Counted from the stretch's first letter, positions 940-15,291 are shown. The stretch: DNA of 15,412 bases from Thermofilales archaeon (GCA_028275925.1 JAPWTS010000044.1:1-15412); one strand, 5' to 3'. Numbers and translations: made by a program. Notes: a model not told the origin generated them from the letters alone.

Positions 940-2508
940 TCAGCCCCCCTTCCTCGCGGCGCTGGCTACGAGGTCGGCGAGGTTCGAGATGAACGCGTAG
1001 TTGTCGGCGACCCGGCAGTACGGCTCGCTGAACATCGTGATGTCGCCGACCGCGACCACCGTGCCGTTGCCCACGCTGGCGAGCGCGATTACCGCGTAGC
1101 GGCCTTGAACCTCGGCCGCGGAGAGGTAGGTGGTGTTCGAGACCCAGGCCGCGGCGTGGCGGGACCTCACGGCGGCGGCCGTGAAGAGGACGAGCTCCCT
1201 CACCCCCTTGAACAGGGTGGCGTTGGAGAAGTCCCTCACGCGCACGTTCCTGTAGATCCCGTAGTAGTCGCTCTCGCTGTACAGGAAGCCGTAGGAGAAG
1301 GTGACGCCGAACCTAGCCGCTAGCGAGTTGATGGGCGCGGTCACGTAGTTGGAGAGGCCCTGCGGGCCCACGTACTCGTAGGAGGGGTCGAAGAGGAGCA
1401 GCAGAACACCGCCCCTCCTCACGAACTCCTCGACGCGCTCCACCTCAGCCTCGCTGTACGGCCGCGTGGGGGCCGCGACCACGAGGCAAGCCGCGCTGTC
1501 CAGCGCCCTCTCCACCTCGCTCCACGAGCTGTAGAAGCTGGCCGTGACGTTGCGCTGCGCCAGCTCGGCGAGCAGCGCGTCCAAGCTCCACCACGAGACC
1601 ACGTTGCCGTGAGAGAGGTCGACGACAACCTTCCCGCCGCTGGCCACTGGCGCCGGCCACTGCCACGGCTGCCCGCTCGCTAGGGCGGTGGCCGGCACGT
1701 ACGCGTAGTAGAGGGCTGGGGGCGGGTGGAGGCTTTCGAGCAGGCTCGCGGTCACGTTGCTCCACGAGTAGTAGCTCCCCCGCGGGCCCTCCCCCTCGCC
1801 CAGCTCCACCACCCTGTAGACAGCTAACCCGGCCCTCCGCGCCGCCTCCTCCACCGCTTGGTCGAGGGTTCCGATCGCGTCCACGAGCCCCAGCTTCACC
1901 GCCTCGGTGCCCAGGTAGACGAGGCCGCGGCTGAGCTCCTCCCTCGAAGCCCTCAGCCTAGGCCCCCTCCCCTCCTCGATCGCGGAGAGGAAGGCGTCGA
2001 GCGCGTGGCTAAGGTTGCTGAAGAAGAGGAGCCTCGAGAAGCCCGTGTGCTTGTACGGGCCGGTCTCGAGGACCACCTCGGACGGCACGAGCAGGGGCGG
2101 CGCCGTGGAGATCACGCCCACGGCGCCGACGAAGGACGAGGGGTGGGCGAAGATGTAGCTCGCGGCGGCGCAGATGTAGTAGCCGCCGGACAGCGCGTTC
2201 ACGGCGACCGCGACGACCGGCTTCCTCCCGTTGAGGTGCTTGAGCGATAGGTACAGCTGCTCCACGTAGTTCGAGTAGCCCCCGAAGGAGTCGACCACCA
2301 CAACCACGGCCTTCACTCTACTGTTCTCCGAGGCGCTCTTGATCAGGGAGCGGTAGTAGTCTGCTGCATCGCTGGTAAGAATGTAGCCTTTGATCCTTAT
2401 GACCGCGACCAGGCCAACCTTCTGCTGCGCGTAGTAAACCGCAACCGCTACCAGCAGTAAGGCGACGACGCCAATCGCCAGGTAAACGTGAAACCCTCGC
2501 ATTTGCAT
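940..2508 (-). CDS. sppA: membrane-anchored signal peptide peptidase SppA (S49, Ser/Lys dyad) fused to a C-terminal ~270-aa GldG/DUF4350-like (ABC_transp_aux-like) domain
   Basis: The 522-aa ORF has an N-terminal TM helix (FHVYLAIGVVALLLVAVAVYY). The S49 core carries the nucleophile motif ALSGGYYICAAAS and the general-base motif GPYKHTG. The C-terminal half carries VVVDLSHGN, the segment CLVVAAPTRPYSEAEVERVEEFVRRGGVLLLLFDP, and the tail VAVGDITMFSEPY...DNYAFISNLADLV. Together these are reminiscent of GldG-type auxiliary domains. A second ATG lies at 2502, so the start may be either 2508 or 2502. Confidence 0.8.
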   Translation of the reverse strand: MQMRGFHVYLAIGVVALLLVAVAVYYAQQKVGLVAVIRIKGYILTSDAADYYRSLIKSASENSRVKAVVVVVDSFGGYSNYVEQLYLSLKHLNGRKPVVAVAVNALSGGYYICAAASYIFAHPSSFVGAVGVISTAPPLLVPSEVVLETGPYKHTGFSRLLFFSNLSHALDAFLSAIEEGRGPRLRASREELSRGLVYLGTEAVKLGLVDAIGTLDQAVEEAARRAGLAVYRVVELGEGEGPRGSYYSWSNVTASLLESLHPPPALYYAYVPATALASGQPWQWPAPVASGGKVVVDLSHGNVVSWWSLDALLAELAQRNVTASFYSSWSEVERALDSAACLVVAAPTRPYSEAEVERVEEFVRRGGVLLLLFDPSYEYVGPQGLSNYVTAPINSLAARFGVTFSYGFLYSESDYYGIYRNVRVRDFSNATLFKGVRELVLFTAAAVRSRHAAAWVSNTTYLSAAEVQGRYAVIALASVGNGTVVAVGDITMFSEPYCRVADNYAFISNLADLVASAARKGG

Positions 2509-5046: not shown

Positions 5047-5072
5047 GCGGTGCCCGAGAAACCCCACTTAAA

Positions 5073-5080
5073 AACGCGCG
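5073..5080 (-). promoter_or_regulatory. TATA box candidate (minus strand TTTTTAAG) for QueT-like gene; a divergent weak TTAAGTAG box at 5098-5105 on the plus strand may serve the 5134 gene
   Basis: The 86-bp divergent spacer between 5046 and 5134 contains both elements. Confidence 0.35.
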
Positions 5081-5133
5081 CTCGCTGCCGCGCGCCAAGC
5101 TTAAGTAGACACCGGCTTCCCGCTGCCGGAGGT

Positions 5134-6873
5134 ATGGCTGCGCGCAGCCCGAGCCTCCCGAGAGGCGTTGCGCGCCAGCGGAATGCTGGGAGAGAGGCGG
5201 GAGGTGGAGGGGGCCTCCTGAGGAGTATCGCGCTCCTGCTGGGGATCGCGCTCTCCCTTGCCACTATGCTCTCCTCCACCTGGCTCTCGCTGGTTCCTCT
5301 CCTGCTCCTCGCTGTAGGCGCCGGGCTGAAGTACCCGGGGCAGGGAAAATTCGGCGTGAAAGCCTTCCTCGCGGTTCTTGCTCTCGCAACAGTTCTCGTC
5401 CTCCTCTTCCTCTTCGCGACGGTGCCGCCCCTCTACCTCTCCTGGATCTCGCTCTTCGGCTTCCTCCTCCTGCTCTCGCTCGGGAGCCCTAAGCGCCTGC
5501 TGCTCTTCCTAGCCCTCCTCGTGGCTGTGCCGCTCCTCCTTGCGGCGCTGAAGGGCTACTTCACGGTGACCTCTTGCAATATAGTTAGGGTCGGGTCCCC
5601 CGAGGAGTTGAAGAGCCTCTTCAGCAACCCCGGCTCGGTTGTGCTTGTCGGTCACGCAATGGCGGACGCGATCGCGCACGCGCAGCTATCGCCGAACGAA
5701 AGGGTGGCGGAGTGGGAGGAGGTGGTCATCGACGGGGCCCCCTACTGGATCTTCGCCGTCACCCCCCTCAACACGATTGCGGAGAACTACGTGAGCAAGC
5801 TGATCCTAGTCCACGTCCAGACGGGAGAAGTGAGAGCGATCCCCGTGCGCATGCCCGTGGGCTCCGGCCTCTGGCTGGCGAACAACATCGAGATGAGAAC
5901 CCTTCTCGCGACGGCGCAGCCCGTGGGGAACACCTACCCCTTCCTCCACGACGGCAAGCCCTACTTCGCCGCTTGCGCGAACACCCTAGCGTACTTGGGG
6001 CTCGTTGAGTGCCCCGGCGAGGTTTACGTCTACGACGAGAGCGGGAACGTGAGGGTCTCCAGGCAGTTCAGCGGAGACGCGTCCATGCCGGAGAACTACG
6101 ATTGGGAGTACCTGGACTGGTACGTGAAGGAGTGGCTGTACTACCTTTCGGGCCTCTCCCCCGTCAGCTTCACGCTGTTCCCGAGGGGCTTCCTCTGGAT
6201 CCCCGCGAGCCCCTACAGCCAGGATCTGCTCAACATGACGCTCCTCCTGCCCGGGAGGTTGGGGGGTACGGTCAGGGTCTACTTCGGCGTCAGCCCCAAC
6301 AACCCCAACAGCGTAGTCTCGATCATCGTGGTGAACAACACCGGCGTCTACTACTACGACGTTAAGGGGCTCGGGATCTACAGCCCCTTCTACGTCCAAT
6401 CCCTCGTGCAGGCTAGGCTTCCGGCGATCAGCGGCGGGTACCTCTACGCGAGGTACGCTCAGCTGATCTACTCGAGCGGCTACCTCTGGGTTGTGCCGAT
6501 CTACGCCCGGACGAACGTGGTCTCCCTGTGGGGTCTCGCGGTGGTGAACGCCACGAACCCCTCTGAAATGAGCATCCACCAGTACTCCCCGAGCTACGGC
6601 TCTTACGCAGACTTCCTAACCGCGGCGATCGCCCCCGGCGCCGCGCAAGCGGGTCGGCAGCTCTGCGAAGTAATCCTGGGCAACGTGACGCGCACCCTGC
6701 AGTTCGTCTACAAGGGCGACACCTACCTCGTCCTCGAAGTTGACGGGAAGCTGCTCTACGCGACCCCGGATATCGGCTTCGAAGCCTTCGCGAAGCTTCT
6801 CACGGTGAGGAGCGGGGACCGCGTGAGGCTGTGCGTCAGCGGCGGCAGGATCGTCCAGGTCGCTGAGCCCTAG
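5134..6873 (+). CDS. polytopic membrane protein with a large (~430 aa) extracytoplasmic domain, function unknown
   Basis: The start is set at ATG 5134 (MAARSPSLPRG...), because the ORF-track start at 5050 would include the divergent promoter. A basic N-terminus precedes 4-5 TM helices (residues ~30-170). The Cys-poor ectodomain carries several N-x-S/T sequons (NMT, NNTG, NATN, NVTR) and aromatic-rich segments (YDWEYLDWYVKEWLYY). No family match is recognised by eye. Confidence 0.75.
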   Translation: MAARSPSLPRGVARQRNAGREAGGGGGLLRSIALLLGIALSLATMLSSTWLSLVPLLLLAVGAGLKYPGQGKFGVKAFLAVLALATVLVLLFLFATVPPLYLSWISLFGFLLLLSLGSPKRLLLFLALLVAVPLLLAALKGYFTVTSCNIVRVGSPEELKSLFSNPGSVVLVGHAMADAIAHAQLSPNERVAEWEEVVIDGAPYWIFAVTPLNTIAENYVSKLILVHVQTGEVRAIPVRMPVGSGLWLANNIEMRTLLATAQPVGNTYPFLHDGKPYFAACANTLAYLGLVECPGEVYVYDESGNVRVSRQFSGDASMPENYDWEYLDWYVKEWLYYLSGLSPVSFTLFPRGFLWIPASPYSQDLLNMTLLLPGRLGGTVRVYFGVSPNNPNSVVSIIVVNNTGVYYYDVKGLGIYSPFYVQSLVQARLPAISGGYLYARYAQLIYSSGYLWVVPIYARTNVVSLWGLAVVNATNPSEMSIHQYSPSYGSYADFLTAAIAPGAAQAGRQLCEVILGNVTRTLQFVYKGDTYLVLEVDGKLLYATPDIGFEAFAKLLTVRSGDRVRLCVSGGRIVQVAEP

Positions 6874-6947: not shown

Positions 6948-7592
6948 CTAGGAAACCTCTCTGGAGCTGGTGCCCGGTAGGGCTCGGAGGATCGCGGCTG
7001 CGCGGTCCAGCGCTCTGGCGGCTTCCGCGCCCAGCTTCGCGTCGCCGCTCAAGCGGACCAGCTCGGGGACGAAGGCGGCCACCTCCTCCTTCAACCTCGA
7101 AAGGTGCCTCAGCCTTGCCTCCTCGCTCGCGGGCTTCTCGCACTGGAGCTTCGGGCCGCCCTCCATGAAGCCCTCGGGGAAGTACCAATCCTTGAACCAC
7201 GTGAAGCCGAGCTGGAAGAGGAGGAAGCCCAGCCTCGTGGCAGCGGGCGGAGCGCCGAGCCTCAGGAGCTTCGAGGTCTCCGCGTCGTACGTGTACTCGA
7301 TGAAGAGCGACTCCCCACCCCCCAGCCTCTCCGCCAGAAGCCCGAGCAGGAGCGCCTCGAGCTCCGAGCCGGCGAAGGGGGTCCTGCGCCCTCCCACCTC
7401 GACCTCCGGCAGGACCGCGAACACCTCAACCCACCTGGCGTAGTAGGGCGGCCGCCCCGCGAAGCACTTCACGACGAGGAGCCGGGCGCCAGCCCCCGGG
7501 CCCAGGTAGAGCTCGTAGTTCGCCTCCTCCCGGAAGCGCCCCCTCCTCTTAACGACCCTCAGCTGGGGCTGCAGCCTCTCGAGGAAGGTCAA
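6948..7592 (-). CDS. conserved hypothetical protein (~214 aa from TTG 7592; ORF open up to 7706), co-transcribed with ferredoxin
   Basis: The ORF is open from 7706 but has no ATG or GTG there, and the first 62 nt overlap the ferredoxin gene. The first in-frame start after the ferredoxin stop is TTG at 7592, preceded by GAGGAG. The sequence contains an FIEYTYDAE...GFTWFKDWYFPEGF core and a C-terminal helical tail. The start codon is uncertain. Confidence 0.55.
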   Translation of the reverse strand: MTFLERLQPQLRVVKRRGRFREEANYELYLGPGAGARLLVVKCFAGRPPYYARWVEVFAVLPEVEVGGRRTPFAGSELEALLLGLLAERLGGGESLFIEYTYDAETSKLLRLGAPPAATRLGFLLFQLGFTWFKDWYFPEGFMEGGPKLQCEKPASEEARLRHLSRLKEEVAAFVPELVRLSGDAKLGAEAARALDRAAAILRALPGTSSREVS

Positions 7593-7644
7593 CGGCTCCT
7601 CGCAGAACGCGAGAGAAAAACCGCTTTGGAGCCCGCCTCCCCCG

Positions 7645-7875
7645 CTACTCAACCGTGATGGCCCCCGTCGGGCAGCCCTCGGCCGCGGTTTTCGCGTCGT
7701 TCGCAAGGTTGTCCGGTATCTCGCCGATCGACTCGCTCTCCGTGTCCACCTTCCTGTACGGCTCCTTGACCCTGCTCTTGAAGGTGTTCGGGTCCTCCTC
7801 GAAGACCTGAGGAGCTAGAGCCCAGCAGGCTCCGCAGCCGATGCACAGCGTTTTATCGACCCTCACCTTCGGCAT
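7645..7875 (-). CDS. fdx: ferredoxin, single [4Fe-4S]/[3Fe-4S] cluster type (Pyrococcus/Thermotoga Fd-like)
   Basis: The protein is 76 aa. It has the motif CIGCGAC near the N-terminus and a distal Cys in AEGCPTGAI. Its size and Cys spacing are typical of small single-cluster archaeal ferredoxins. Confidence 0.85.
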   Translation of the reverse strand: MPKVRVDKTLCIGCGACWALAPQVFEEDPNTFKSRVKEPYRKVDTESESIGEIPDNLANDAKTAAEGCPTGAITVE

Positions 7876-7966: not shown

Positions 7967-7989
7967 TTTTGAGTATTATACTTCGGAGC

Positions 7990-9378
7990 ATGCTATTCGT
8001 CGACAGGGAGGAGGAGCTCGGGGTCCTCGAGGAAGCCTACAGCAGTGGGAGGTCCCAGATGGTCTTGATCTACGGGAGGAGACGGATAGGGAAAACGTAC
8101 CTCATCGCGCGCTTCCTCAGGGAGAGGGGAGGGGTGTACCTCTGCGTCAACCACGAGGAGCGGGAGCTCGCCTTGAGGGATTTGGTGGAGCAGCTGCTGG
8201 CGCAGCTGCGGCTGCCCTACGCGCCGCGCGTGAGCAGCTTCAGGGACCTCTTCGAGCTCCTCGCGGCTGCGGGAGCGCGCGTGGTCGTTGTGGACGAGTT
8301 CCAGCGCCTGCTGAAGGCCGGAGGTTTGACGGAGCTCCAGCACGCGTGGGATCAGAGGTTGTCGAGGAGCGGGATCCTGCTCGTGCTCTCGGGCTCCGCG
8401 GTCGGCGCGGCAGAGAGGGTGGGCCTATCGCACGCTTCGCCGCTTTTCGGTAGGGTTACGAGGGTGCTGAAGGTCGGCGAGCTCGGCTACAAGGCCGTCC
8501 GAGCCTTCCTGCCCGGCTACCCGGAGGAAGATAGGGTGAGGGCGTACGGGGTCTTCGGCGGGGTTCCCGGCTACCTGGCACTCCTCAACCCGCGGCTGAC
8601 GTTGGAGGAGAACGTGGCGAAGCTCGCTCTGGAGCCGGGGGCGCCGCTGCGCGAGGAGCCCGTGATCCTGCTTAAGCTCGAGCTCAGGAACCCTTCGAGG
8701 TACGCCGAGATCCTGCGCGCGATAGCGGGCGGCGCAACCCAGTTCAGCGAAATCGCCGACAAATCCGGAGTGAAGGTGACGGAGCTGCCCAAGTACCTGA
8801 GGGTGCTGGAGGAGGACTTGGAGCTCGTGGAGCGCAGGTACCCCCTGCTAAGCGAGGGCTCGAGGAGGAGGGCCAGGTACTACGTGAGGGACCGCTTCAC
8901 GAGCTTCTGGTTCAGGTTCGTCTACCCGAACAGGGTTCTCCTCGAGCTAGGTCTCCACCGGGAGGTTGCCTCGCGGCTCCCGGAGGCCCTGGATCGGCAG
9001 GCCTCGGAGGCGTTCGAGGAGGTGGCGCGCCAGCACTTCGCGCTGCTGGCGAAGAGCGGGCGCGTGAGCTTCACGAGGATAGGCCGCTGGTGGTCGGGCG
9101 ACGTCGAGATCGATCTGGTCGCGATCGACGAGCGGCGGGGCGTCGCGTACTTCATCGAGGTGAAGTGGACCAGGCAGCCGGTCGGGAAGGAGGTGCTCCG
9201 GAAGTTGGAGAAGAAGGCGGAGGAGTTCCCGTGGAGGAGGGGGGAGAGGAGGGAGGTGTACGTGCTCTACAGCAGGTCCGGCTTCGCGTTCGAACCGGAG
9301 GAGGGCGTCCTGCTCTTCTCCCTCTCCGACGTTCAGCGCGACTTCGAGCGGGAAAGGCCGCTGGTGACCGAGCTGTGA
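7990..9378 (+). CDS. archaeal AAA+ ATPase (Arch_ATPase PF01637-like) with C-terminal DUF234 / PD-(D/E)xK-like domain
   Basis: I chose the ATG at 7990 (MLFVDREEELGVLEE). The ORF-track TTG at 7969 lies within the TATA box. The Walker A motif is GRRRIGKT and the Walker B motif is VVVVDEFQ. The N-terminal FVDREEEL motif is typical of this family. The C-terminal RIGRWWSGDVEIDLVAIDE...YFIEVKW segment is a DUF234-type nuclease-like fold. Confidence 0.85.
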   Translation: MLFVDREEELGVLEEAYSSGRSQMVLIYGRRRIGKTYLIARFLRERGGVYLCVNHEERELALRDLVEQLLAQLRLPYAPRVSSFRDLFELLAAAGARVVVVDEFQRLLKAGGLTELQHAWDQRLSRSGILLVLSGSAVGAAERVGLSHASPLFGRVTRVLKVGELGYKAVRAFLPGYPEEDRVRAYGVFGGVPGYLALLNPRLTLEENVAKLALEPGAPLREEPVILLKLELRNPSRYAEILRAIAGGATQFSEIADKSGVKVTELPKYLRVLEEDLELVERRYPLLSEGSRRRARYYVRDRFTSFWFRFVYPNRVLLELGLHREVASRLPEALDRQASEAFEEVARQHFALLAKSGRVSFTRIGRWWSGDVEIDLVAIDERRGVAYFIEVKWTRQPVGKEVLRKLEKKAEEFPWRRGERREVYVLYSRSGFAFEPEEGVLLFSLSDVQRDFERERPLVTEL

Positions 9379-9383
9379 GCTCT

Positions 9384-9845
9384 CTAGCTCAGCTTGAGGC
9401 TCAAGCGCTGCCTTCGAGCCGGCGGCACCTCCCCCCTCTTAATCCTCTCGATGAGATCGACGACCCTCCGCTTTATCTCGTCTCTAACCTTCCGAGCTTC
9501 CTCGAGGCTCATGCGGGCGGGGTCGGGGATCTCCCAGTGCTCCACGTACCTCGTGTACACCGTGGGGCACGTGCCCGACTCCGACTCCCCGCACACGACT
9601 ACGCCGATCTCGGCGATCCTCTGCAGCTCCGGGGTGAGCGGCTTCGGCTTCTTCCCCGAGATGTCGATGCCCTCCTCCAGCATCAGCTTGACCGCGTTGG
9701 GGTGAACCTCCTCCGCCGGCTTGCTGCCGGCGCTAACGGCCCGCCACCCGGGAGGGGCCATCGCGTTGAAGTACGCTTCCGCCATCTGGCTCCGGAACCT
9801 GTTCTCCGTGCAGACGAAAAGCACGATTCGCTCGGACCCGCCCAC
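9384..9845 (-). CDS. arsC: low-molecular-weight phosphatase-fold protein, thioredoxin-coupled arsenate reductase (ArsC)-like
   Basis: The P-loop is CX5R (VCTENRFRSQMAEA). The distal Cys pair (VVCGESESGTCP) matches the Cys82/Cys89 pair of Bacillus/Staphylococcus ArsC. A GTG start lies at 9845, with a minus-strand TTAAATA box 21 nt upstream. The stop is only 5 bp from the convergent ATPase stop. Confidence 0.75.
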   Translation of the reverse strand: MGGSERIVLFVCTENRFRSQMAEAYFNAMAPPGWRAVSAGSKPAEEVHPNAVKLMLEEGIDISGKKPKPLTPELQRIAEIGVVVCGESESGTCPTVYTRYVEHWEIPDPARMSLEEARKVRDEIKRRVVDLIERIKRGEVPPARRQRLSLKLS

Positions 9846-9900: not shown

Positions 9901-10317
9901 CTAATCAGGCCAGTACTCCGGCGGCGCGCTCCTCCTGAGGGTGGGATCGCCGCTCAACCTCCAAAAGCCGGAGCGGGGCGCGACGATCTCGATCCCCAAG
10001 GCCTCAGCGAGCGCATCGCTAATCAGCACCTCGTGCTCTCCGGGCACGCTCACCGCCCGAGCAGTCAACCATGGGGTTTCGCGATCCTCGAGCAACAGCT
10101 TGACTTCCACTTGCCCCAGCACGTACGCCATGGTATCGGCTCCTACGACCCTGTACCTCTCGCCCTTTAGCGCCTCCAGGCTGAACGACAGCTTCTTCGC
10201 TAGCGCGAGGGGGATGTGCAGCTCCGGCTCGTCAGCCTCGTACCCGCTGTTAACCAGCGCGCTCGTCTTCGCCGCGCGCTCCCCCCTCTTTATGCTCAGC
10301 AGCACGTAAACTCCCAT
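9901..10317 (-). CDS. small retropepsin-like (clan AA aspartic-protease fold) protein with Asn in place of the catalytic Asp
   Basis: I chose the ATG at 10317 (138 aa). The ORF track also allows TTG at 10335. The segment TSALVNSGYE aligns with the hydrophobic-hydrophobic-D-T/S-G-A signature, with D changed to N. The C-terminal VLISDALAEALGIEIV segment resembles the retropepsin dimer-interface motif (hh-G-x-D-x-L). No TATA box lies directly upstream, so it may be co-transcribed with the IPCT/DIPPS-like genes. Confidence 0.5.
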   Translation of the reverse strand: MGVYVLLSIKRGERAAKTSALVNSGYEADEPELHIPLALAKKLSFSLEALKGERYRVVGADTMAYVLGQVEVKLLLEDRETPWLTARAVSVPGEHEVLISDALAEALGIEIVAPRSGFWRLSGDPTLRRSAPPEYWPD

Positions 10318-10330
10318 CGGACCCCACCCT

Positions 10331-10398
10331 GACAAGCCTGCCGAACCGCTTCCTAGCTCGCTTCAGAAGCACGCTCCTGCTGACGAGCCTGCCAAACC
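10331..10398. repeat. two imperfect 17-22 bp direct repeats (gacaagcctgccgaacc / gacgagcctgccaaacc) 51 bp apart
   Basis: Coordinates are 10331-10347 and 10382-10398, matching at 15 of 17 positions, and they lie at the start of a 222-bp non-coding spacer. Two copies are too few to call a CRISPR array. This is a candidate transcription-factor binding pair. Confidence 0.3.
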
Positions 10399-10557
10399 TC
10401 CCCATTCCACCCGCTCCGCGGTCAACGTTGCGGGGTCTTTTTAAGCTTTCAGCGGCACCGGCGCAGCGCGAAGCCAGACGCATAAGCCGAGCGAAGGCTT
10501 TCACTCGCGTCTTTTCCGCGCGTTTCGCAATTCCCGCGGGGTCAAGCAGCACTGGTG

Positions 10558-11736
10558 TTAAGCTTCCCGCGCTGAGCGTTTACGGGAGTGCGTTGAGAGG
10601 CGCATTAGCTGCGCGGTGCCCTCTCTTTCGTCCAGCTCCCTCAGGTGGCGGGTGGCTCTTACGAAGTACACGGCAGCGGTCAACGACGCGTGAATGAGGG
10701 CGGCGAGGAGCGCCAGCAGGGGGTGCCCCGCGGCAGAGAAGGCGATGGCGTAGATCAGGTAGACGTTCCTCCTCCCGTCGACAAAGGCGAAGGCCCTGTC
10801 GAAGGGGGTGTAGTGCTTCAGCGGTTTACCGGCGGTGAGCGCGAACTGGTTGTAGACGTGCCTTACGAAGCAGTCCACGACGAGGAGAGCCGTCCCCAGC
10901 GCGGCGGCGAGGAAGCCGTAGCCGTGAAGGGCGAGGCCGAGCGCGAAGGACGCGTAGAGCGCCTGCTCGTAGAGCGCGTCGAGGGAGTGCTCGAGGTGCC
11001 CGAACTTCGTGAGGACCCCCCGCACTCGCGCCAGCTTGCCGTCAACACCGTCGAGGATCCCGAGGAGGTACGAGAAGGCGGCTGCAGGCAGGAACTGCCC
11101 GTTGGCAAACAGCAACACAGCAAGCAGCGAGAGAGCGTTAACCGCGAGGGTCACGCGGTTCGGCGTAACAGCTCTGCAATCGCCGAGAAGCTTGACCAAC
11201 GCGTTCTCAAGGGGCGCGTTGAGGACCGAAGTGAAGTGGACGCCCTTCTGAGCCCAGCGCACCAGCGCGCGCCTAGCAGCTTCGAGATCGCCAGCGTAAA
11301 CGCACGCCGGCCTGTGGCGGGGCTCCGCCAGCTCGTCGAGCTCCACCGAGCGGCCGGCGCCGCGAGCGGGCTTCTCCAGCACGGGCTTTCCCGCGTGCAC
11401 CCCCCTCGCGTAATCCCCTTCGACGAACCGCCTCAGGGCGCCCGGCTCCACCAGGAAGTCGGCTTCGACGAGAAGCTCCGCGTCGGCTGGTAGCGGCGCA
11501 CCCGGTGCGAGGTACTCCACCTCTACACGCAGGGATACCCCTCGCAGCAAAGCCTCCACAGCGTCCAAAACTCCGCGCTCAGCGGCAACGACGAAGCTCG
11601 TGAAACCCAAGCTCTTCAGAGCCGAGATCCACCGAACCACCACCGGCGTCCCGAAGTGCTCGAGGAGGGCTACTGGCGTCGGCCCTCCCCGCCCGTTAAA
11701 GAAGCCTCGGAAGCGGAGGACGGCTTTACGCCTCAC
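10558..11736 (-). CDS. IPCT/DIPPS-like bifunctional-architecture protein: N-terminal degenerate nucleotidyltransferase-fold domain + C-terminal CDP-alcohol phosphotransferase membrane domain (candidate di-myo-inositol-phosphate phosphate synthase)
   Basis: The protein is 392 aa. The C-terminal domain carries the CDP-OH phosphotransferase core DGVDGKLARVRGVLTKFG...SLDALYE (D-G-x2-A-R-x8-G...D-x3-E) embedded in about 6 TM helices. The N-terminal ~165 aa align with the MobA/GlmU-like fold (PTPVALLEHFGTPVVVRWISALKSLGFTSFVV), but the glycine-rich NTP loop is atypical (GFFNGRGG). The GTG start overlaps the upstream gene stop by 11 nt (GTGAGGCGTAA). Confidence 0.75.
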   Translation of the reverse strand: MRRKAVLRFRGFFNGRGGPTPVALLEHFGTPVVVRWISALKSLGFTSFVVAAERGVLDAVEALLRGVSLRVEVEYLAPGAPLPADAELLVEADFLVEPGALRRFVEGDYARGVHAGKPVLEKPARGAGRSVELDELAEPRHRPACVYAGDLEAARRALVRWAQKGVHFTSVLNAPLENALVKLLGDCRAVTPNRVTLAVNALSLLAVLLFANGQFLPAAAFSYLLGILDGVDGKLARVRGVLTKFGHLEHSLDALYEQALYASFALGLALHGYGFLAAALGTALLVVDCFVRHVYNQFALTAGKPLKHYTPFDRAFAFVDGRRNVYLIYAIAFSAAGHPLLALLAALIHASLTAAVYFVRATRHLRELDEREGTAQLMRLSTHSRKRSAREA

Positions 11737-13564
11737 CTTCGCCCACCGCCTCAGTCACGCTCTTCAACGCGCGCTTGAAGGCGTCCTCGAACGTCGCGTA
11801 AACCACCTTGACGAGGTCGTAAAGGAGCACGACGACTATCGTTAGCAGCGCTAGAGCGGCCGCGCGCGACAGGACGCTCCCGAACACCGGCACGGGCTGC
11901 AGGGCTTTCGGTACGAAGGCCAGCGCCAGCCAGGCTGCAAGGAGGTACAGCGCGTCCAAGCCTATGTGCCTGGCTACGCTCTCCGTCACCCCGAGAGCCC
12001 TCACCACCTTCACAGCTAGCGCGTCCACGAGGACCTTCGCCCCGATCAGGACCCTGTACCCGTAGTACACGGTGACCACGAGCGCTAAAAGCGGCACCAC
12101 GTCCCCCACCTTCAGCTCCAGCCATTCGAGGTTGAGGAGGACCACGTCGCCGAGGTAGCTCTGCGCGTAGGAGAGCACCAGGAGGGCTAGCGCCAGCTTG
12201 AAACCGCTCGCTGCGGCCGCCCTCAGTTTACGCTCCGCGCGCTTCACCCCCGCTCCGAGCCTGGGGAACGCTTCACCGGCAGGCTTAGGCGGTGCAGCCA
12301 GCACCTCCCCGGGCCACGCGGCAGCTAGGTTGCTGCAAACCCAGTAAGCTAGGGCGGCCGGCCCGAAGCCCGCAAACGCGATCGCAGCCGTCGCGGCGTA
12401 CTTCAGGAGGGGGTCCGCAACCCACGCCGACCTGCCCGGTCTACCCCCTCCGCGCCCAAGGAAGATTGGTACCGCCGAGCTGGCCGCCGCGAGCGCGGTA
12501 AGCGCGTGAGGGACTCGCTCGCCTAGCGCGGTCGCGATTAGCGAGAGGACGCCCACCTCCGCGACCAGCTCGGTGAGCGCGACGACCCTCACCAAGCCCT
12601 CCCCCCTCCGCGCTAAAACGGCGGCGAGGTCGGCTAGGTCCCCGAGGAAAGCAACCGCGTATAAAAGCGCGAAAGCTAGAAGCGGTTGCAGGTGTGGGGT
12701 AGCGATCAGCGCTAGCGCTCCGAGCGCGAGAAGAAGCGCCGCTGCTAGGAGCGCCGCTCTAGCCCGAGCGTTGGGGGGTTCGAGAGAAGCGAGCCTTAGC
12801 GTCGCAGGTCGGATGAGCGCTAGCGTCAGCGGCCCCGAGCACCTCTTCCCGTAATCCCTGATGAGGATCTTCTTGAAAAGCGCCCTAGCTTTCGCTAGGT
12901 CTTCAACAGTGTCCACGTCCTTCCAGAGGAGGCCCGTTACGTCTACGTAATCCACTTCGCCATCCTTAGCCGCTAGGTCGAGCGCATCGCCGATCGACGC
13001 AGTGGGCCCCTTCTCCGAAATCACCCTTTCAACGTAAGCGTAAGCCTTCTCCCTAACGAGAATCAAGCCCGTGTCGATACCGTACCTCGATTCCAGGTTC
13101 TTCCCGACCGCGACCACGACACCCCCGGCGAGCTTCACTTTCAAGCCCTCCTGGGCCTCCGCGCGGGAGGGTTTCCTGTCGAGGCACACGGTGAAAGCCT
13201 TGCTCGAGCGGTGGGAGAGGACGCGCTTCAGCATCTCGTACTCGAAAACGTGGTCGGACATCGCGACGAGGAACGGGGGTTTCACGTGCTTGAGGGCCGT
13301 GTACACGCTGTACAGGTTGCCAAACTCTTCTCTATCCACAGTTAAGACCACCACCGAGGGGCCGAGCTTGGAGCGGAACGCTTCGACGAACTCCTTCCTC
13401 GTAACTAGGTAGACCGGCGAGAGCCCAGCTCTCCTGAACCTCTCTAGTATGAACTCGGCAATCGTGAGACCAGGCTCCAGCTCCATGAGGCTTTTCGGCC
13501 GCTCTTCCGAGTAGGGTCTCAGCCTGCTCGCAACACCGCCCGCGACGATGACGACGGGGAGCAT
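11726..13564 (-). CDS. nucleotidyltransferase (cytidylyltransferase-like, canonical G-loop) fused to a large ~370-aa polytopic membrane domain with only a degenerate CDP-alcohol-transferase-like motif
   Basis: The start is set at ATG 13564 (MLPVVIVAGGVASRLRPYSEERPKSLMELEPG), which carries the canonical NTP-transferase signature. The ORF-track TTG at 13675 lies in the AT-rich promoter. After about 240 aa come 10 or more hydrophobic helices. They contain the segment DLADLAAVLARRGEGLVRVVALTELVAE, which echoes D-x2-D-G-x2-A-R-x8-G-x3-D-x3-D with DG lost and the Asp residues changed to Glu. Confidence 0.75.
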   Translation of the reverse strand: MLPVVIVAGGVASRLRPYSEERPKSLMELEPGLTIAEFILERFRRAGLSPVYLVTRKEFVEAFRSKLGPSVVVLTVDREEFGNLYSVYTALKHVKPPFLVAMSDHVFEYEMLKRVLSHRSSKAFTVCLDRKPSRAEAQEGLKVKLAGGVVVAVGKNLESRYGIDTGLILVREKAYAYVERVISEKGPTASIGDALDLAAKDGEVDYVDVTGLLWKDVDTVEDLAKARALFKKILIRDYGKRCSGPLTLALIRPATLRLASLEPPNARARAALLAAALLLALGALALIATPHLQPLLAFALLYAVAFLGDLADLAAVLARRGEGLVRVVALTELVAEVGVLSLIATALGERVPHALTALAAASSAVPIFLGRGGGRPGRSAWVADPLLKYAATAAIAFAGFGPAALAYWVCSNLAAAWPGEVLAAPPKPAGEAFPRLGAGVKRAERKLRAAAASGFKLALALLVLSYAQSYLGDVVLLNLEWLELKVGDVVPLLALVVTVYYGYRVLIGAKVLVDALAVKVVRALGVTESVARHIGLDALYLLAAWLALAFVPKALQPVPVFGSVLSRAAALALLTIVVVLLYDLVKVVYATFEDAFKRALKSVTEAVGEGEA

Positions 13565-13594
13565 TTGGCGGCACAGAAAGCTCGCACCGTTCGC

Positions 13595-13606
13595 TAAAAA
13601 TTTTTC
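13595..13606 (-). promoter_or_regulatory. TATA-like box within the perfect palindrome AAAAATTTTT, serving the 13564 operon
   Basis: The minus strand reads gcggAAAAATTTTTAgcgaacggtgcgagctttctgtgccgccaaATG, with about 30 nt from box to ATG. It lies in a bidirectional AT-rich spacer shared with the encapsulin gene. Confidence 0.4.
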
Positions 13607-13714
13607 CGCTAGCGCACTAGGGTATACCGGAGGCATTAATACTCTAAAAATTCTTGCATATATTTCAAGTGCCAACCCCTTGAAAGCTTTCGCGCTAGGG
13701 GAAAGTGCTCGTAG

Positions 13715-13728
13715 AAAATCATATTAAC
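13715..13728 (+). promoter_or_regulatory. TATA-like box candidate (AAAATCATATTAAC) for the encapsulin operon
   Basis: It lies about 32 nt upstream of GTG 13760. Alternative AT-rich elements sit at 13634-13668. Confidence 0.3.
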
Positions 13729-13759
13729 CGACCTCCCTACCGCTCACCGGGGACGAGGC

Positions 13760-14809
13760 GTGCTGTCTAAGCACCCGCTGGATCTCCCTCCGGGCAGGAA
13801 GCTGTCTAGGGAGGAGGTTGCCGACGCGCTGAGGCTTTCCATAATCGCGGAGCTCGACGCCGTGAGCCTCTACCTCCAGCTTGCTCGGGCGATCGAGGAC
13901 GAGCGGATGAGGAGGGTGTTCGAGGACATCGCGCGCGAGGAGAAGACCCACATCGGCGAGTTCCTCGCGGTGCTGAAAAGCCTTGACCCCGAGCAGGTTG
14001 AGGAGCTGAAGGCTGGAGCGAGGGAGGTGGCGGAGCTCACCGGCGTCGCGGTCCCCGACCCGCCTCAAGCCGAGGCCCAAGCCGAGCCGTTGACGGCCGA
14101 AGAGTGGAGCTACCTTCTGAGCCAGTTCAGGTCCGCCGCCGACTCCGCTAGGGTGTTCAGGCGCCACCTCCCGGTCACCCGGGTCGGCAGGGGCGCTTAC
14201 GCGGTTCCTCTCGAGAAGCCGGGAGGTCAGGGCGAGGTTCTACCGCTGAAGGAGCTGGCGGTCAAGTTCCGCTTGAGCCAGCGGGCTATCGACTACGCGA
14301 GAGCGGCGAAGCAGCCGCCGGAGCTCGCGGACGCGCTTAGGGCCGCGGTGGAGCTCGGCTCCAGCGAGGACAGGGTGGTGCTGGAGGCGCTCGCGAACCT
14401 GAAGGAGGCCGTTAGGCTCCCGGCCACGAGCTGGGACGAGCCCGGGGCCGCTTTGAGCGAGATCGCCGCCGCTGTCGCCGAGCTGGTCAAAGCCCAGGCG
14501 ACCCCACCCTTCGTCGCCTTCGTCAGCTCCGGCAGGTACGCGAAGCTGCTCGCGGTGCACGAGAGGACCGGAGTCATGGAGCTGACTAGGGTCAAGGCGC
14601 TGGCCGAAGTGGTCGCGACCCCCTCGCTGCCCGACGACACCGTCTTCGTCGTCTCAGCCACCCCCAGGGTCCTCGACCTCGTGCTCGGCGCCGACACGGA
14701 GGTGGCTTACCTGGGCCCCGAGGACGGCTACCACGCGTTCAGGGCCTGGGAGACGGTAGCCGTGAGGGTCAGGTACGAGCGCGGCGTCGCCGTGCTCAAG
14801 CAGAGGTGA
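13760..14809 (+). CDS. Family-1 encapsulin shell protein with N-terminally fused ferritin-like (Flp) domain (Pyrococcus furiosus PfV-like)
   Basis: The protein is 349 aa with a GTG start. The N-terminal ~100 aa (LRLSIIAELDAVSLY...AREEKTHIGEFLAVLKSLDPEQVEELK) is a ferritin-like domain carrying E and ExxH iron ligands. The rest shows encapsulin/HK97-fold landmarks: HLPVTRVGRG, GRYAKLL...TGVMEL, ATPRVLDLVLGADTEVAYLGPEDG. It is collinear with PfV across the whole length. Confidence 0.88.
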   Translation: MLSKHPLDLPPGRKLSREEVADALRLSIIAELDAVSLYLQLARAIEDERMRRVFEDIAREEKTHIGEFLAVLKSLDPEQVEELKAGAREVAELTGVAVPDPPQAEAQAEPLTAEEWSYLLSQFRSAADSARVFRRHLPVTRVGRGAYAVPLEKPGGQGEVLPLKELAVKFRLSQRAIDYARAAKQPPELADALRAAVELGSSEDRVVLEALANLKEAVRLPATSWDEPGAALSEIAAAVAELVKAQATPPFVAFVSSGRYAKLLAVHERTGVMELTRVKALAEVVATPSLPDDTVFVVSATPRVLDLVLGADTEVAYLGPEDGYHAFRAWETVAVRVRYERGVAVLKQR

Positions 14810-15291
14810 GGGGCGTGGAGGCTGTAGCCCAGGCTCTGCGGAGGCTGGCCGAGGCGGAGCGCAAGTACGCGGAGGAGCTGAGGGGGCTCGCCGAGTCGGT
14901 GAAGTACGCCACGGTGATCGGCGCCGTGATCGAGGCGATCGCCAGCGACTCGGAGAAGCACGCCGGCCTCTACGAGGCGATGCTGAAGATCGTGGTCGGC
15001 TGGCACCAGCCGGGTCTCGTGCGCGAGGACCTGAAGCTCGTGGCCCAGGTCATCGACCGGCACATAGAAACTGAGAGGCGGATGATCGAGGAGACGAGGA
15101 AGCTGCTCGAGGAGGTCGCGGACCCCAGGATGCGACTGCTGCTCGCGGCGATCTACGAGGACGAGGTTAAGCACCACCGCGTGCTCACAGACATCAAGGG
15201 TAAGATCGCGAAAGCGGAAACGCTCTCGGAGGAGGAGTTCTGGGAAGCCGTTTGGAGGGACAGCCCCTGGCACGGTACGCCCGGAGGCTAA
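14806..15291 (+). CDS. stand-alone four-helix-bundle ferritin-like / rubrerythrin-like diiron protein, translationally coupled to the encapsulin
   Basis: The protein is 161 aa. The GTG at 14806 overlaps the encapsulin TGA (aGGTGAgg). Glu-rich helices (AEAERKYAEEL, ETERRMIEET) and the motifs SEKH and EDEVKHH match the E / ExxH ligand pattern of ferritin-like proteins. I see no obvious C-terminal encapsulin-targeting peptide. Confidence 0.7.
   Translation: MRGVEAVAQALRRLAEAERKYAEELRGLAESVKYATVIGAVIEAIASDSEKHAGLYEAMLKIVVGWHQPGLVREDLKLVAQVIDRHIETERRMIEETRKLLEEVADPRMRLLLAAIYEDEVKHHRVLTDIKGKIAKAETLSEEEFWEAVWRDSPWHGTPGG

What the first reader, a model, noticed from the sequence alone, without database searches (positions are those of the whole stretch)
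10558..13564. Tandem overlapping IPCT/DIPPS-like fusion paralogues with reciprocal motif degeneration
Both genes fuse a nucleotidyltransferase-fold N-domain to a membrane domain. This is the architecture of the bifunctional CTP:inositol-1-phosphate cytidylyltransferase / di-inositol-phosphate-phosphate synthase that makes the thermoprotective solute di-myo-inositol phosphate. The upstream 612-aa protein has a canonical cytidylyltransferase G-loop (GGVASRL...PKSL), but its membrane domain retains only a degenerate CDP-alcohol transferase echo (DLAD...AR...V-x3-E-x3-E). The downstream 392-aa protein has the reverse pattern: an atypical NTP loop (GFFNGRGG) but an intact DGxxAR...D-x3-E transferase core. 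The genes overlap by 11 nt (GTGAGGCGTAA), which suggests translational coupling. This looks like subfunctionalised duplicates that may work as a heteromer, each contributing one active site. The 612-aa protein also has a further ~200-aa membrane extension of unknown function. The alternative reading is a second CDP-alcohol pathway, for example a glycerophospho-inositol-type solute or a lipid head group.
Basis: partly seen in the sequence, partly recalled or inferred. Interest (0 to 1): 0.7.

Follow-up and report, generated by a model that had tools for sequence, protein, structure and literature searches.

The report
Two half-dead enzymes that complement each other
Two overlapping archaeal (Thermofilum) genes each encode a cytidylyltransferase-like domain joined to a CDP-alcohol transferase membrane domain, but each keeps only one working active site, so together they probably rebuild one two-step CDP-inositol-type enzyme.

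Summary
Gene A (13564-11726, minus strand, 612 aa) has a live IPCT-like cytidylyltransferase domain. Its six-helix CDP-alcohol phosphotransferase (CDP-AP) domain has lost at least 6 of the 8 signature residues. It also carries an uncharacterised 4-helix C-terminal extension. Gene B (11736-10558, 392 aa) has a truncated nucleotidyltransferase-derived domain with no G-loop or lysine, as in A. fulgidus AF2299. Its CDP-AP domain keeps 7 of 8 signature residues; D3 is Glu and the spacer is one residue shorter. This variant is conserved across a large family.

The 11-nt overlap is real. It is conserved in four Thermofilaceae lineages, with a GGTG ribosome-binding motif upstream.

New evidence comes from 49 related loci. 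A proteins with a decayed motif have a B-type gene beside them in 15 of 16 cases. A proteins with an intact motif have one in 0 of 33.

B belongs to a separate, widespread CDP-AP lineage, and A's site seems to have decayed several times after B was present.

The product is unresolved: di-inositol-phosphate-type solute or inositol-phospholipid. This is a new variant of a known kind, of moderate interest.

The parts
11726..13564 (-). Gene A, 612 aa: live IPCT-like cytidylyltransferase, decayed CDP-AP membrane domain and a 4-helix C-terminal extension
   Evidence: ORF and translation. Homologues of 606-640 aa in Thermofilaceae, Bathyarchaeia, Brockarchaeota and Nitrososphaeria. AlphaFold pLDDT 85.9. 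Best fold match 4mnd.
12860..13555 (-). A residues 4-235: nucleotidyltransferase domain with the G-loop AGGVASRL, K24, MSDH, GIDTG and W..D.DT.EDL motifs
   Evidence: Pfam PF12804 and PF00483. NCBIfam IPCT/DIPPS model, N-half, 6.4e-31; the next family scores 8.5e-14. PDB sequence hits 4mnd and 2xme at about 1e-16. Invariant columns.
12320..12832 (-). A residues 245-415: six-helix CDP-AP-fold domain with a decayed active site (pseudo-enzyme domain)
   Evidence: Aligned to the intact D..DG..AR x8 G...D...D of relatives. Mean identity within Thermofilaceae is 25% here, against 63% for the NTP domain; in intact clades the two domains are about equally conserved. The acceptor-side TRDxR is also lost.
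12530..12631 (-). A residues 312-345, the core of the region that aligns to the CDP-AP signature (full span 308-332; the first four positions, 308-311, lie just 5' of this range): G308/A311/D312/A315/V316/V325/V328/E332
11729..12271 (-). A residues 432-612: C-terminal extension of four predicted long hydrophobic helices, a beta-hairpin and a terminal amphipathic helix. Invariant P434, G502, Y503, Y582. No known family.
10558..11736 (-). Gene B, 392 aa: truncated dead cytidylyltransferase-like domain plus a B-type CDP-AP domain
   Evidence: ORF. 97% identical to a protein labelled 'Thermofilum sp.' MAG. AlphaFold pLDDT 91. Best fold match AF2299 4o6n_A, TM-score 0.64/0.74 over 388 columns.
11287..11736 (-). 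B residues 1-150: nucleotidyltransferase-derived domain lacking the G-loop and the lysine (PVAL in place of PKSL), with tens of residues (roughly 40-85) of the fold deleted
   Evidence: hhalign. Alignment to the Hadesarchaea bifunctional enzyme L067. HMM hits to stand-alone IPCT.
10621..11244 (-). B residues 165-372: CDP-alcohol phosphotransferase domain (juxtamembrane helix plus six transmembrane helices)
   Evidence: Pfam PF01066 above its cut-off. Invariant columns D229 G230 D232 G233 K234 L235 A236 R237 G246 E249 D253 E257 G321 R322 R323 N324.
10978..11052 (-). B residues 229-253: signature DGVDGKLARVRGVLTKFGHLEHSLD, with 7 of 8 residues kept and D3 replaced by E249
11726..11755 (-). Junction: 11-nt overlap (GTG start of B inside the last codons of A) preceded by GGTGGG, a Shine-Dalgarno-like motif about 7 nt upstream
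   Evidence: The same 11-nt overlap and GGTG occur in L006, L007 and L009.
13565..13759 (.). Intergenic region shared with the divergent encapsulin gene. It contains A/T-rich TATA-like stretches upstream of the ATG of A and is the likely promoter of the A-B operon (read by eye, not tested).
   Evidence: Sequence. The same divergent arrangement occurs in a 93-96% identical metagenome contig.

Best explanation
A and B are a two-gene operon whose products together rebuild one IPCT/DIPPS-type two-step enzyme.

**Proposed mechanism**
1. The N-domain of A (a CTP:inositol-1-phosphate cytidylyltransferase-like domain) makes the CDP-alcohol, most likely CDP-inositol.
2. The membrane domain of B transfers the phospho-alcohol to an acceptor hydroxyl. 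It uses a di-metal site built from D229, D232, E249 and D253.
3. The dead CDP-AP domain of A and the dead cytidylyltransferase-like domain of B are kept as scaffolds.
   - A's dead domain anchors the soluble cytidylyltransferase and the 4-helix extension in the membrane. CDP-APs dimerise through TM3/TM4, so it probably pairs with B as a pseudo-heterodimer, placing CDP-inositol synthesis next to the only live transferase site.
   - B's dead domain packs on the TM2-3 loop, as in AF2299.
4. B is translated by coupling: a GGTG motif and an 11-nt overlap.

**Proposed history**
- B descends from a separate 'B-type' lineage of bifunctional enzymes whose cytidylyltransferase half decayed.
- Once B sat beside an A-type gene, A's own transferase site became redundant. 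It decayed in different ways in Thermofilaceae, in the Brockarchaeota-type clade and in one Bathyarchaeia lineage.

**Product (inferred, not shown)**
- Soluble inositol phosphodiester such as DIPP/DIP: about 0.4.
- Inositol phospho-ether-lipid: about 0.3.
- Another CDP-polyol product: about 0.3.

**Shown versus inferred**
- Shown: domain homologies, motif states, co-occurrence, gene coupling.
- Inferred: physical heteromer, substrates, product.
For: **Domain identities**
-.

**Motif states**
- A has lost at least 6 of 8 signature residues and the acceptor-side TRDxR.
- B keeps 7 of 8. The E-for-D3 variant is invariant in its family.
- Roles of D1-D4 and the TM3/TM4 dimer interface come from PMC6506517.

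**Relaxed constraint only on A's dead domain**
- Thermofilaceae mean identity is 63% (NTP domain), 25% (CDP-AP domain) and 37% (extension).
- Intact clades give 84/87/79 and 69/67/64.

**Co-occurrence**
- 15 of 16 decayed-A loci have a B-type gene, against 0 of 33 intact-A loci. Fisher p = 1e-11, not corrected for phylogeny.
- One of these pairs is in convergent orientation (L028), which argues that linkage rather than mere operon inheritance is being kept.

**Fusions that link the two activities**
- P0127 (666 aa) is a live IPCT-like domain, a dead CT-like domain and a B-type CDP-AP in one chain.
- P0162, P0145, P0208, P0180 and L067 are bifunctional B-types with a live G-loop.

**Coupling and precedent**
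- The 11-nt overlap and GGTG are conserved in four lineages at 47-55% protein identity.
- AF2299 is a precedent for a dead cytidylyltransferase-like scaffold domain (PMC4634129).
Against: - No physical interaction was tested; no multimer model was available.
- B's D3 is Glu and the spacer is one residue shorter. No enzyme with this variant has been characterised to my knowledge, so 'active' rests on family-wide invariance alone.
- One decayed-A locus (L033) has no B-type gene within 5 kb, and one (L055) has a B that lacks the N-domain.
- Co-occurrence counts are not phylogenetically independent. They amount to perhaps 3 independent contrasts, and the NJ support for several separate decays is only 75-76%.
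- The substrate of A's cytidylyltransferase is inferred from nearest-family similarity only (108 bits against a 580-bit equivalog cut-off).
- No inositol-1-phosphate synthase or phosphatase gene lies in the window.
- The function of the conserved 4-helix extension is unexplained by this model.
Confidence: 0.6

Rival explanations
1. One reading: A and B are products of a local tandem duplication of one IPCT/DIPPS fusion gene, followed by classical subfunctionalisation.
For: The genes are adjacent and overlapping, they share a collinear two-domain architecture, and their losses are reciprocal.
Against: - The B HMM scores L067 at 278 bits, canonical IPCT/DIPPS at 60-91 bits and intact A-family proteins at only 17-47 bits.
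- B shares its diagnostic DGxDGK[LQ]AR...EHxxD motif with hundreds of non-neighbouring proteins, including bacterial ones.
- Partner-B proteins nest inside that family as sister to live bifunctional B-types.
- A and B give no BLASTP signal against each other.
- B lacks A's C-terminal extension.
Confidence: 0.08
2. Same split-enzyme mechanism, but the product is a membrane lipid. Phospho-inositol from CDP-inositol is transferred to a lipid alcohol (archaeol- or GDGT-type core lipid). This would be a Kennedy-type route like the Rhodothermus marinus IPCT/BEPIS pathway, and A's four extra helices would supply the lipid-acceptor site.
For: - CDP-APs with lipid acceptors typically carry 3-4 extra C-terminal transmembrane helices (PMC4634129). 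A has 6+4 predicted helices.
- The A family is spread through terrestrial and sediment Thermoproteota rather than marine hyperthermophiles.
- There is a precedent for CDP-inositol as a lipid head-group donor (Jorge et al. 2015, as cited in PMC9246714 and PMC4587543).
- Thermofilum growth depends on an external polar lipid fraction (PMC4673724).
Against: - B, the subunit with the live site, has only the six-helix core typical of enzymes with soluble acceptors.
- B has an invariant GRRN where DIPPS and AF2299 have TRDxR and where PIP synthases use arginines to bind the acceptor phosphate (PMC4634129).
- The nearest solved relatives do not process lipids (PMC4634129).
- The extension shows no detectable similarity to anything.
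- Homology to BEPIS could not be tested.
Confidence: 0.3
3. A and B are functionally independent. B is a self-sufficient AF2299-like transferase that uses a CDP-alcohol made elsewhere (for example CDP-glycerol). A is a membrane-tethered cytidylyltransferase whose extension has its own, unrelated function. The adjacency would be only operonic.
For: - AF2299 works without its own cytidylyltransferase and binds CDP-glycerol (PMC4634129).
- Most B-type proteins in the library are not known to sit next to an A gene, because the library carries no context.
- L033 has a decayed A without an adjacent B-type gene.
Against: - The 15/16 against 0/33 association between A's motif state and B's presence is hard to explain without functional replacement.
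- The association persists in a convergent arrangement (L028).
- Live IPCT-like domains are repeatedly fused to B-type CDP-APs.
- The 11-nt coupling is conserved.
Confidence: 0.12

Closest known systems
Archaeoglobus fulgidus bifunctional IPCT/DIPPS (AF0263; PDB 4MND, IPCT domain 2XME)
   Same: - Collinear architecture of a cytidylyltransferase domain, a juxtamembrane helix and a six-helix CDP-AP domain.
- It is the best fold match for A (441 columns) and the second best for B.
- It is the best characterised sequence relative of A's N-domain.
   Different: - One polypeptide carries both live sites there. Here each polypeptide keeps one.
- A adds a ~190-aa four-helix extension that is absent from all ~440-aa canonical enzymes.
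- B has the E-for-D3 motif variant.
A. fulgidus AF2299 (PDB 4O6M/4O6N), a CDP-alcohol phosphotransferase with an N-terminal cytidylyltransferase-like domain
   Same: - It is the best structural match for B over its whole length (TM-score 0.64/0.74).
- The concept is the same: a catalytically dead nucleotidyltransferase-like scaffold on a live CDP-AP (PMC4634129).
   Different: - AF2299 has the canonical GxxxDxxxD (alignment), while B has GxxEHxxD.
- Sequence similarity is weak (E 1e-4, 18% identity).
- AF2299 is not reported with a partner that carries the complementary live cytidylyltransferase and a dead CDP-AP domain.
Split IPCT and DIPPS genes, seen here in L071 and L084 (241-267-aa IPCT followed by a 251-264-aa CDP-AP); from my own recollection of the literature on DIP-pathway evolution, also in Thermotoga and some Crenarchaeota
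   Same: Two adjacent genes each supply one of the two activities.
   Different: In true split systems each gene has lost the other domain entirely. Here both genes keep the full two-domain fold, with one dead half each.
Rhodothermus marinus MIPS-IPCT-BEPIS pathway (CDP-inositol donated to dialkylether glycerol), as described in PMC4587543 and PMC9246714
   Same: An IPCT-like enzyme is coupled to a separate CDP-AP. It shows that CDP-inositol need not lead to DIP.
   Different: It is bacterial, and its operon includes the inositol-phosphate synthase. No such gene lies in this window. Sequence relationship to B was not testable here.
Pseudoenzyme partners in nucleotidyltransferase complexes, for example human GMPPA/GMPPB (PDB 7D72)
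   Same: A dead paralogue is retained as a structural or regulatory partner of a live one. It appears among A's fold hits.
   Different: It is a soluble complex with a single domain type. There is no reciprocal arrangement of two different dead and live domains.

Membership tests
Bifunctional IPCT/DIPPS (NCBIfam NF041135; AF0263 type) | Live nucleotidyltransferase domain (G-loop GxGxR plus a Lys downstream) | tested here: met
   Met for A: AGGVASRL...PK24SL, with G10, R14 and K24 invariant or nearly invariant. Not met for B: the loop is replaced by RGFFNGRGG and the Lys by V.
Bifunctional IPCT/DIPPS (NCBIfam NF041135; AF0263 type) | Complete CDP-AP signature D1xxD2G1xxAR..G2xxxD3xxxD4 in the same polypeptide as the live cytidylyltransferase | tested here: not met
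   A retains at most 2 of 8 residues in either register. B has 7 of 8 but no live cytidylyltransferase.
Bifunctional IPCT/DIPPS (NCBIfam NF041135; AF0263 type) | Score at or above the curated equivalog cut-off (580 bits) | tested here: not met
   A scores 107.8 bits (N-half only). B scores 43.7 bits (C-half only). The model is specific to Thermococcales, so this failure is expected for distant lineages.
Bifunctional IPCT/DIPPS (NCBIfam NF041135; AF0263 type) | Makes CDP-inositol and DIPP from CTP and inositol-1-phosphate | not testable with these tools
   Requires an enzyme assay.
CDP-alcohol phosphatidyltransferase (Pfam PF01066) | Pfam gathering score reached | tested here: met
   B scores 36.5 bits against a cut-off of 22. 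A gives no hit, although A's relatives at 35-37% identity do.
CDP-alcohol phosphatidyltransferase (Pfam PF01066) | All four metal-binding or catalytic aspartates D1-D4 | tested here: inconclusive
   B has D229, D232, E249 and D253. Glu replaces D3 and the spacer is one residue shorter. This is invariant across the B-type family. No biochemical data exist for this variant.
AF2299-like (dead cytidylyltransferase-like domain plus CDP-AP) | N-terminal nucleotidyltransferase-like fold without catalytic loop, packed on a six-helix CDP-AP | tested here: met
   B: Foldseek 4o6n_A, E 2.9e-11, 388 columns, TM-score 0.64/0.74. The G-loop is absent.
AF2299-like (dead cytidylyltransferase-like domain plus CDP-AP) | Close sequence relationship or orthology to AF2299 | tested here: not met
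   phmmer E 1e-4, about 18% identity. The motif class differs: canonical D3 in AF2299, Glu in B.
Split IPCT + DIPPS gene pairs | Each gene encodes only one of the two domains | tested here: not met
   Both A and B retain both folds. True split pairs look like L071 and L084.
IPCT/BEPIS lipid pathway (R. marinus) | Operon with inositol-phosphate synthase | tested here: not met
   No such gene was found among the window ORFs scanned with Pfam, nor in the related contig L085.
IPCT/BEPIS lipid pathway (R. marinus) | Homology of the transferase to BEPIS; lipid acceptor | not testable with these tools

The most novel reading that the evidence does not exclude
A and B form an obligate pseudo-heterodimer. 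The dead CDP-AP domain of A and its four-helix extension have been repurposed as a lipid-acceptor module. The pair would then attach phospho-inositol from CDP-inositol directly onto pre-formed archaeal core lipids (archaeol or GDGT alcohols). This would be a Kennedy-type head-group pathway not yet known in archaea. It would let lipid-dependent Thermofilum re-head scavenged lipids, and the intact ~620-aa A family would do the same job alone in Bathyarchaeia and Nitrososphaeria.
Probability: 0.15. Interest if true: 0.85.

Novelty: new variant of a known kind. Interest (0 to 1): 0.55.

Why it matters
- **A natural experiment in redundancy.** This would be a clean case of a bifunctional membrane enzyme being taken apart by redundancy rather than by gene fission. 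Two full-length paralogues each keep one live and one dead domain. The dead domains persist, and decay follows the arrival of the partner in several lineages. That gives a concrete, testable pseudoenzyme-heteromer system in the CDP-alcohol phosphotransferase family, whose members are otherwise described as homodimers.

- **Two uncharacterised groups.** One is a ~620-aa 'IPCT/DIPPS plus four helices' family spread across Thermoproteota. The other is a large CDP-AP lineage in which the third signature Asp is always Glu.

- **Annotation risk.** Automated sources already label such proteins as DIP synthases, and IPCT/DIPPS homologues have been read as DIP synthases in non-thermophilic archaea (PMC8397731). 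Knowing whether they make a thermoprotective solute or an inositol lipid would change those readings.

Tried and rejected
- **BLASTP of A against B.** No significant alignment. The homology needed profiles.
- **C-terminal extension.** Nothing informative came from any of these:
  - profile against PDB sequences;
  - Pfam on 11 members, where the weak SieB and MscS_TM hits were judged compositional;
  - a word-indexed homologue search, which returned only three A-family fragments;
  - a local HMM search, which found it only in the A family;
- **Conserved neighbours of the A family.** No family-wide partner besides B was found. Only clade-specific synteny appeared, including an AP_endonuc_2 gene upstream in 16 loci.
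- **Inositol-1-phosphate synthase.** A remembered-motif regex over all fetched loci found nothing. That is not conclusive, because the motif came from memory.
- **Source names for B-type proteins.** Only generic or automated names were found.
- **Literature.**
  - The primary IPCT/DIPPS and T. pendens genome papers are not held in the library.
  - No paper linking Thermofilum to inositol solutes was found.
  - One search was wasted on a badly set term threshold.
- **Window scans.** No tRNA or Rfam family matches.
- **Rejected idea: A's membrane domain uses an alternative conserved motif.** The aligned positions are not conserved even among Thermofilaceae.

Full report
**1. What is in the sequence**

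The window has about 65% G+C. Two long minus-strand ORFs occupy 10558-13675.
- Gene A starts at the ATG at 13564 and ends at 11726 (612 aa). This start matches full-length homologues (P0001, 93% identity, 100% coverage).
- Gene B starts at the GTG at 11736 and ends at 10558 (392 aa).
- The two overlap by the 11 nt GTGAGGCGTAA.
- B is 97% identical to a protein from a MAG labelled Thermofilum sp.. The same A-B pair follows a divergent encapsulin gene on a closely related (B 96% identical) metagenome contig.
- The window is therefore from a Thermofilaceae archaeon.

**2. Domain identities**

Gene A:
- Pfam sees only a nucleotidyltransferase domain, at residues 4-230.
- NCBIfam's best model is the IPCT half of the bifunctional IPCT/DIPPS (6.4e-31; the next family scores 8.5e-14).
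- The best solved relatives are A. fulgidus IPCT/DIPPS 4mnd and 2xme, and the alignment runs on into the first membrane helix.

Gene B:
- Pfam sees only a CDP-alcohol phosphatidyltransferase domain.
- NCBIfam's best model is the DIPPS half of the same bifunctional family (1.8e-11).
- The best solved relative is AF2299.

Direct BLASTP of A against B finds nothing.

At the profile level the two families align collinearly: B 11-346 with A 24-420, probability 98.8, E 4e-17.
- The N-domain of B alone aligns to the N-domain of A in register (PVAL with PKSL, ADF with SDH) at probability 84, E 7e-6.
- Control pairings score below 1%.
- An HMM of the B family hits a stand-alone IPCT (L074, E 9e-10) and the N-halves of canonical IPCT/DIPPS.

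AlphaFold models are confident: A pLDDT 85.9 and B pLDDT 91.0.
- A's best PDB match is 4mnd over 441 columns.
- B's best is AF2299 over 388 columns (TM-score 0.64/0.74), followed by 4mnd.

**3. Active-site scoring**

The CDP-AP signature is D1xxD2G1xxAR...G2xxxD3xxxD4. The four Asp bind a di-metal site, D4 is the presumed base, and the enzymes dimerise through TM3/TM4 (PMC6506517).

| Signature position | Intact A-family relative | Window A | Window B |
|---|---|---|---|
| D1 | D | G308 | D229 |
| D2 | D | A311 | D232 |
| G1 | G | D312 | G233 |
| A | A | A315 | A236 |
| R | R | V316 | R237 |
| G2 | G | V325 | G246 |
| D3 | D | V328 | E249 |
| D4 | D | E332 | D253 |

- Intact members of A's family read, for example, DGVDGELARLYRKATPWGGYLDSVLD.
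- Shifting A's register by one residue rescues only D309 and D312.
- The acceptor-side TRDxR of DIPPS-type enzymes is also gone in A.
- The aligned positions are not conserved among Thermofilaceae, so there is no replacement motif.
- In B, Glu replaces D3 and the spacer is one residue shorter.
- This E-for-D3 pattern is invariant in B's family and is followed by an invariant GRRN.

For the nucleotidyltransferase site the pattern is the reverse.
- A has the G-loop, K24, MSDH, GIDTG and W..D.DT.EDL motifs, shared with A. fulgidus IPCT.
- B lacks the loop and the lysine, and tens of residues (roughly 40-85) of the fold are deleted.

The reciprocal pattern is real. Two corrections apply. B's core is a conserved variant rather than canonical. 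B's N-domain is a truncated scaffold of the AF2299 kind (PMC4634129).

**4. The families**

A belongs to a 606-690-aa family: live cytidylyltransferase, CDP-AP domain and a ~190-aa extension.
- The family occurs in Thermofilaceae, Bathyarchaeia, Brockarchaeota, Nitrososphaeria/Caldarchaeales, Wolframiiraptor and other Thermoproteota.
- Canonical ~440-aa IPCT/DIPPS match only the first ~430 positions of its HMM.
- The extension is predicted as four long hydrophobic helices, a beta-hairpin and a terminal amphipathic helix.
- It has invariant P434, G502, Y503 and Y582.
- It matches no Pfam family or solved structure, and it occurs only in this family among all sequences held.

B belongs to a much larger lineage.
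- An exhaustive profile search gave 279 clusters at E<=1e-30. Nearly all of the top 147 carry DGxDGK[LQ]AR...EHxxD and lack a G-loop.
- A few members keep a live G-loop (L067 Hadesarchaea, P0145, P0162, P0180, P0208).
- P0127 (666 aa) is a live IPCT-like domain, a dead CT-like domain and a B-type CDP-AP in one chain.
- Some members are bacterial.

**5. Co-occurrence**

I scored every A-family locus that had at least 1.3 kb of downstream sequence.

| State of A's signature | Loci | With a B-type gene in the locus |
|---|---|---|
| Intact | 33 | 0 |
| Decayed | 16 | 15 |

- Fisher p = 1e-11, not corrected for phylogeny.
- In 14 of the 15 cases B lies immediately downstream on the same strand. 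In L028 it lies immediately downstream but convergent.
- In L055, B is a 231-aa membrane-only version.
- L033 is the one exception.
- The dead domain evolves under relaxed constraint:

| Clade | NTP domain identity | CDP-AP domain identity | Extension identity |
|---|---|---|---|
| Thermofilaceae (decayed) | 63% | 25% | 37% |
| Bathyarchaeia (intact) | 84% | 87% | 79% |
| Nitrososphaeria-type (intact) | 69% | 67% | 64% |

**6. History**

- The B HMM scores L067 at 278 bits, canonical IPCT/DIPPS at 60-91 bits and intact A proteins at 17-47 bits.
- In an NJ tree of the CDP-AP domain, all partner-B proteins form one clade inside the B-type family. This clade is sister to the bifunctional B-types with a live G-loop.
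- In an NJ tree of the A family, decayed A proteins fall into three groups: Thermofilaceae plus the L033 group (89%), L028, and the Brockarchaeota type (100%). These are interleaved with an intact Bathyarchaeia clade.
- Monophyly of all decayed A proteins was recovered in only 8 of 100 bootstraps.
- The residues lost also differ between groups.
- The simplest reading has three steps:
  1. A B-type enzyme, with its cytidylyltransferase already or soon decayed, came to lie beside an A gene.
  2. A's transferase site became redundant.
  3. That site then decayed more than once.
- This is complementation between old paralogues, not tandem duplication. NJ with moderate support is not decisive on the number of events.

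**7. Expression coupling**

- The 11-nt overlap, with a GTG or ATG start, recurs in L006 (Infirmifilum), L007 and L009. In each case GGTG lies 7-8 nt upstream, inside A.
- T. pendens has a gap of 2-8 nt.
- The Brockarchaeota-type pairs have gaps of 35-60 nt, again with GGTG.

**8. Function**

Shown:
- One live cytidylyltransferase of the IPCT kind and one apparently live CDP-AP.
- They are encoded by coupled genes and are tightly co-inherited.

Inferred:
- A makes CDP-inositol and B transfers phospho-inositol.
- The dead CDP-AP fold of A pairs with B through the usual TM3/TM4 interface.

The product is open.

In favour of a soluble phosphorylated acceptor (DIPP-like):
- B has the six-helix core typical of soluble-acceptor enzymes.
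- B has invariant arginines at the position of acceptor-phosphate ligands (PMC4634129).
- The organism is a hyperthermophile.

In favour of a lipid acceptor:
- A's 6+4 helices resemble the helix count of lipid-acceptor CDP-APs (PMC4634129).
- The A family has a non-marine distribution.
- The R. marinus CDP-inositol lipid pathway is a precedent (PMC9246714, PMC4587543).
- Thermofilum requires an external polar lipid fraction (PMC4673724).

No inositol-phosphate synthase or phosphatase gene is in the window, and the genome could not be searched.

**9. Verdict**

Reciprocal decay, complementation and coupling hold. Tandem duplication does not. The heteromer and DIP remain untested.
- It is a new variant of a known kind. 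The parts (IPCT/DIPPS, an AF2299-like dead domain) are known. To my knowledge three things are not described:
  - the reciprocal pairing;
  - its strict co-occurrence rule;
  - the extension-bearing A family together with the E-for-D3 lineage.

Noticed in passing
window 13760-14809 (+) and 14806-15291 (+): A rubrerythrin/EncFtn-like domain is fused to an encapsulin shell protein (Linocin_M18, 1.2e-29). It is followed, with a 4-nt overlap, by a second rubrerythrin-like gene. Both are transcribed divergently from gene A, and the same arrangement occurs in L085.
   Followed up: partly
window 5050-6873 (+): A 607-aa ORF has no Pfam or NCBIfam match at all. Whether it is a real gene was not checked.
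   Followed up: partly
L004 8245-9078, L003 8272-9090 and 14 further loci: An AP_endonuc_2 (xylose-isomerase-like TIM barrel) gene sits immediately upstream of the A-family gene on the same strand, in 10 Brockarchaeota-type and 6 Bathyarchaeia loci. The Bathyarchaeia version is closest to the cobamide-remodelling phosphodiesterase CbiR (1e-18, below its cut-off). It could be a phosphodiesterase or phosphatase of the same pathway. It is absent from the window.
   Followed up: partly
P0127 / P0286 (666-669 aa, metagenomic): A three-part fusion: a live IPCT-like domain, a dead cytidylyltransferase-like domain and a B-type CDP-AP. In effect it is A's N-domain fused to a complete B.
   Followed up: partly
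L083 5905-6741 and 6701-9172 (Acidobacteriaceae); L082 is similar: A stand-alone IPCT-like gene is followed by an 823-aa protein. That protein has a ~340-aa multi-helix N-terminal region (not scanned), then a dead cytidylyltransferase-like domain, then a canonical CDP-AP (DGCDGEVARL...WLDTICD).
   Followed up: no
L055 7928-8623: In an uncultured Thermoproteales MAG, the partner downstream of a decayed-motif A is a 231-aa B-type CDP-AP with no N-terminal domain at all. The related L033 has no B-type gene within 5 kb.
   Followed up: partly
B-type family (P0123-P0269): A large CDP-alcohol phosphotransferase lineage has the third signature Asp always replaced by Glu-His and the spacer one residue shorter (DGxDGK[LQ]AR x7 G xx EH xx D). 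Most members have a G-loop-less N-domain. I found no characterised member.
   Followed up: partly
window 9384-9845 (-), 9901-10335 (-), 10250-10552 (-): A low-molecular-weight phosphatase (LMWPc, 4.3e-21) lies about 700 nt downstream of B on the same strand. Two small ORFs with no family match lie in between. This arrangement is not conserved in T. pendens.
   Followed up: partly
window 7969-9378 (+), 6948-7706 (-), 940-2508 (-): The window also holds an archaeal ATPase_2/DUF234 protein, a DUF1122 protein, and a Peptidase_S49 fused to ABC_transp_aux/DUF4350-like regions. They appear to be ordinary neighbours with no apparent link to the finding.
   Followed up: no
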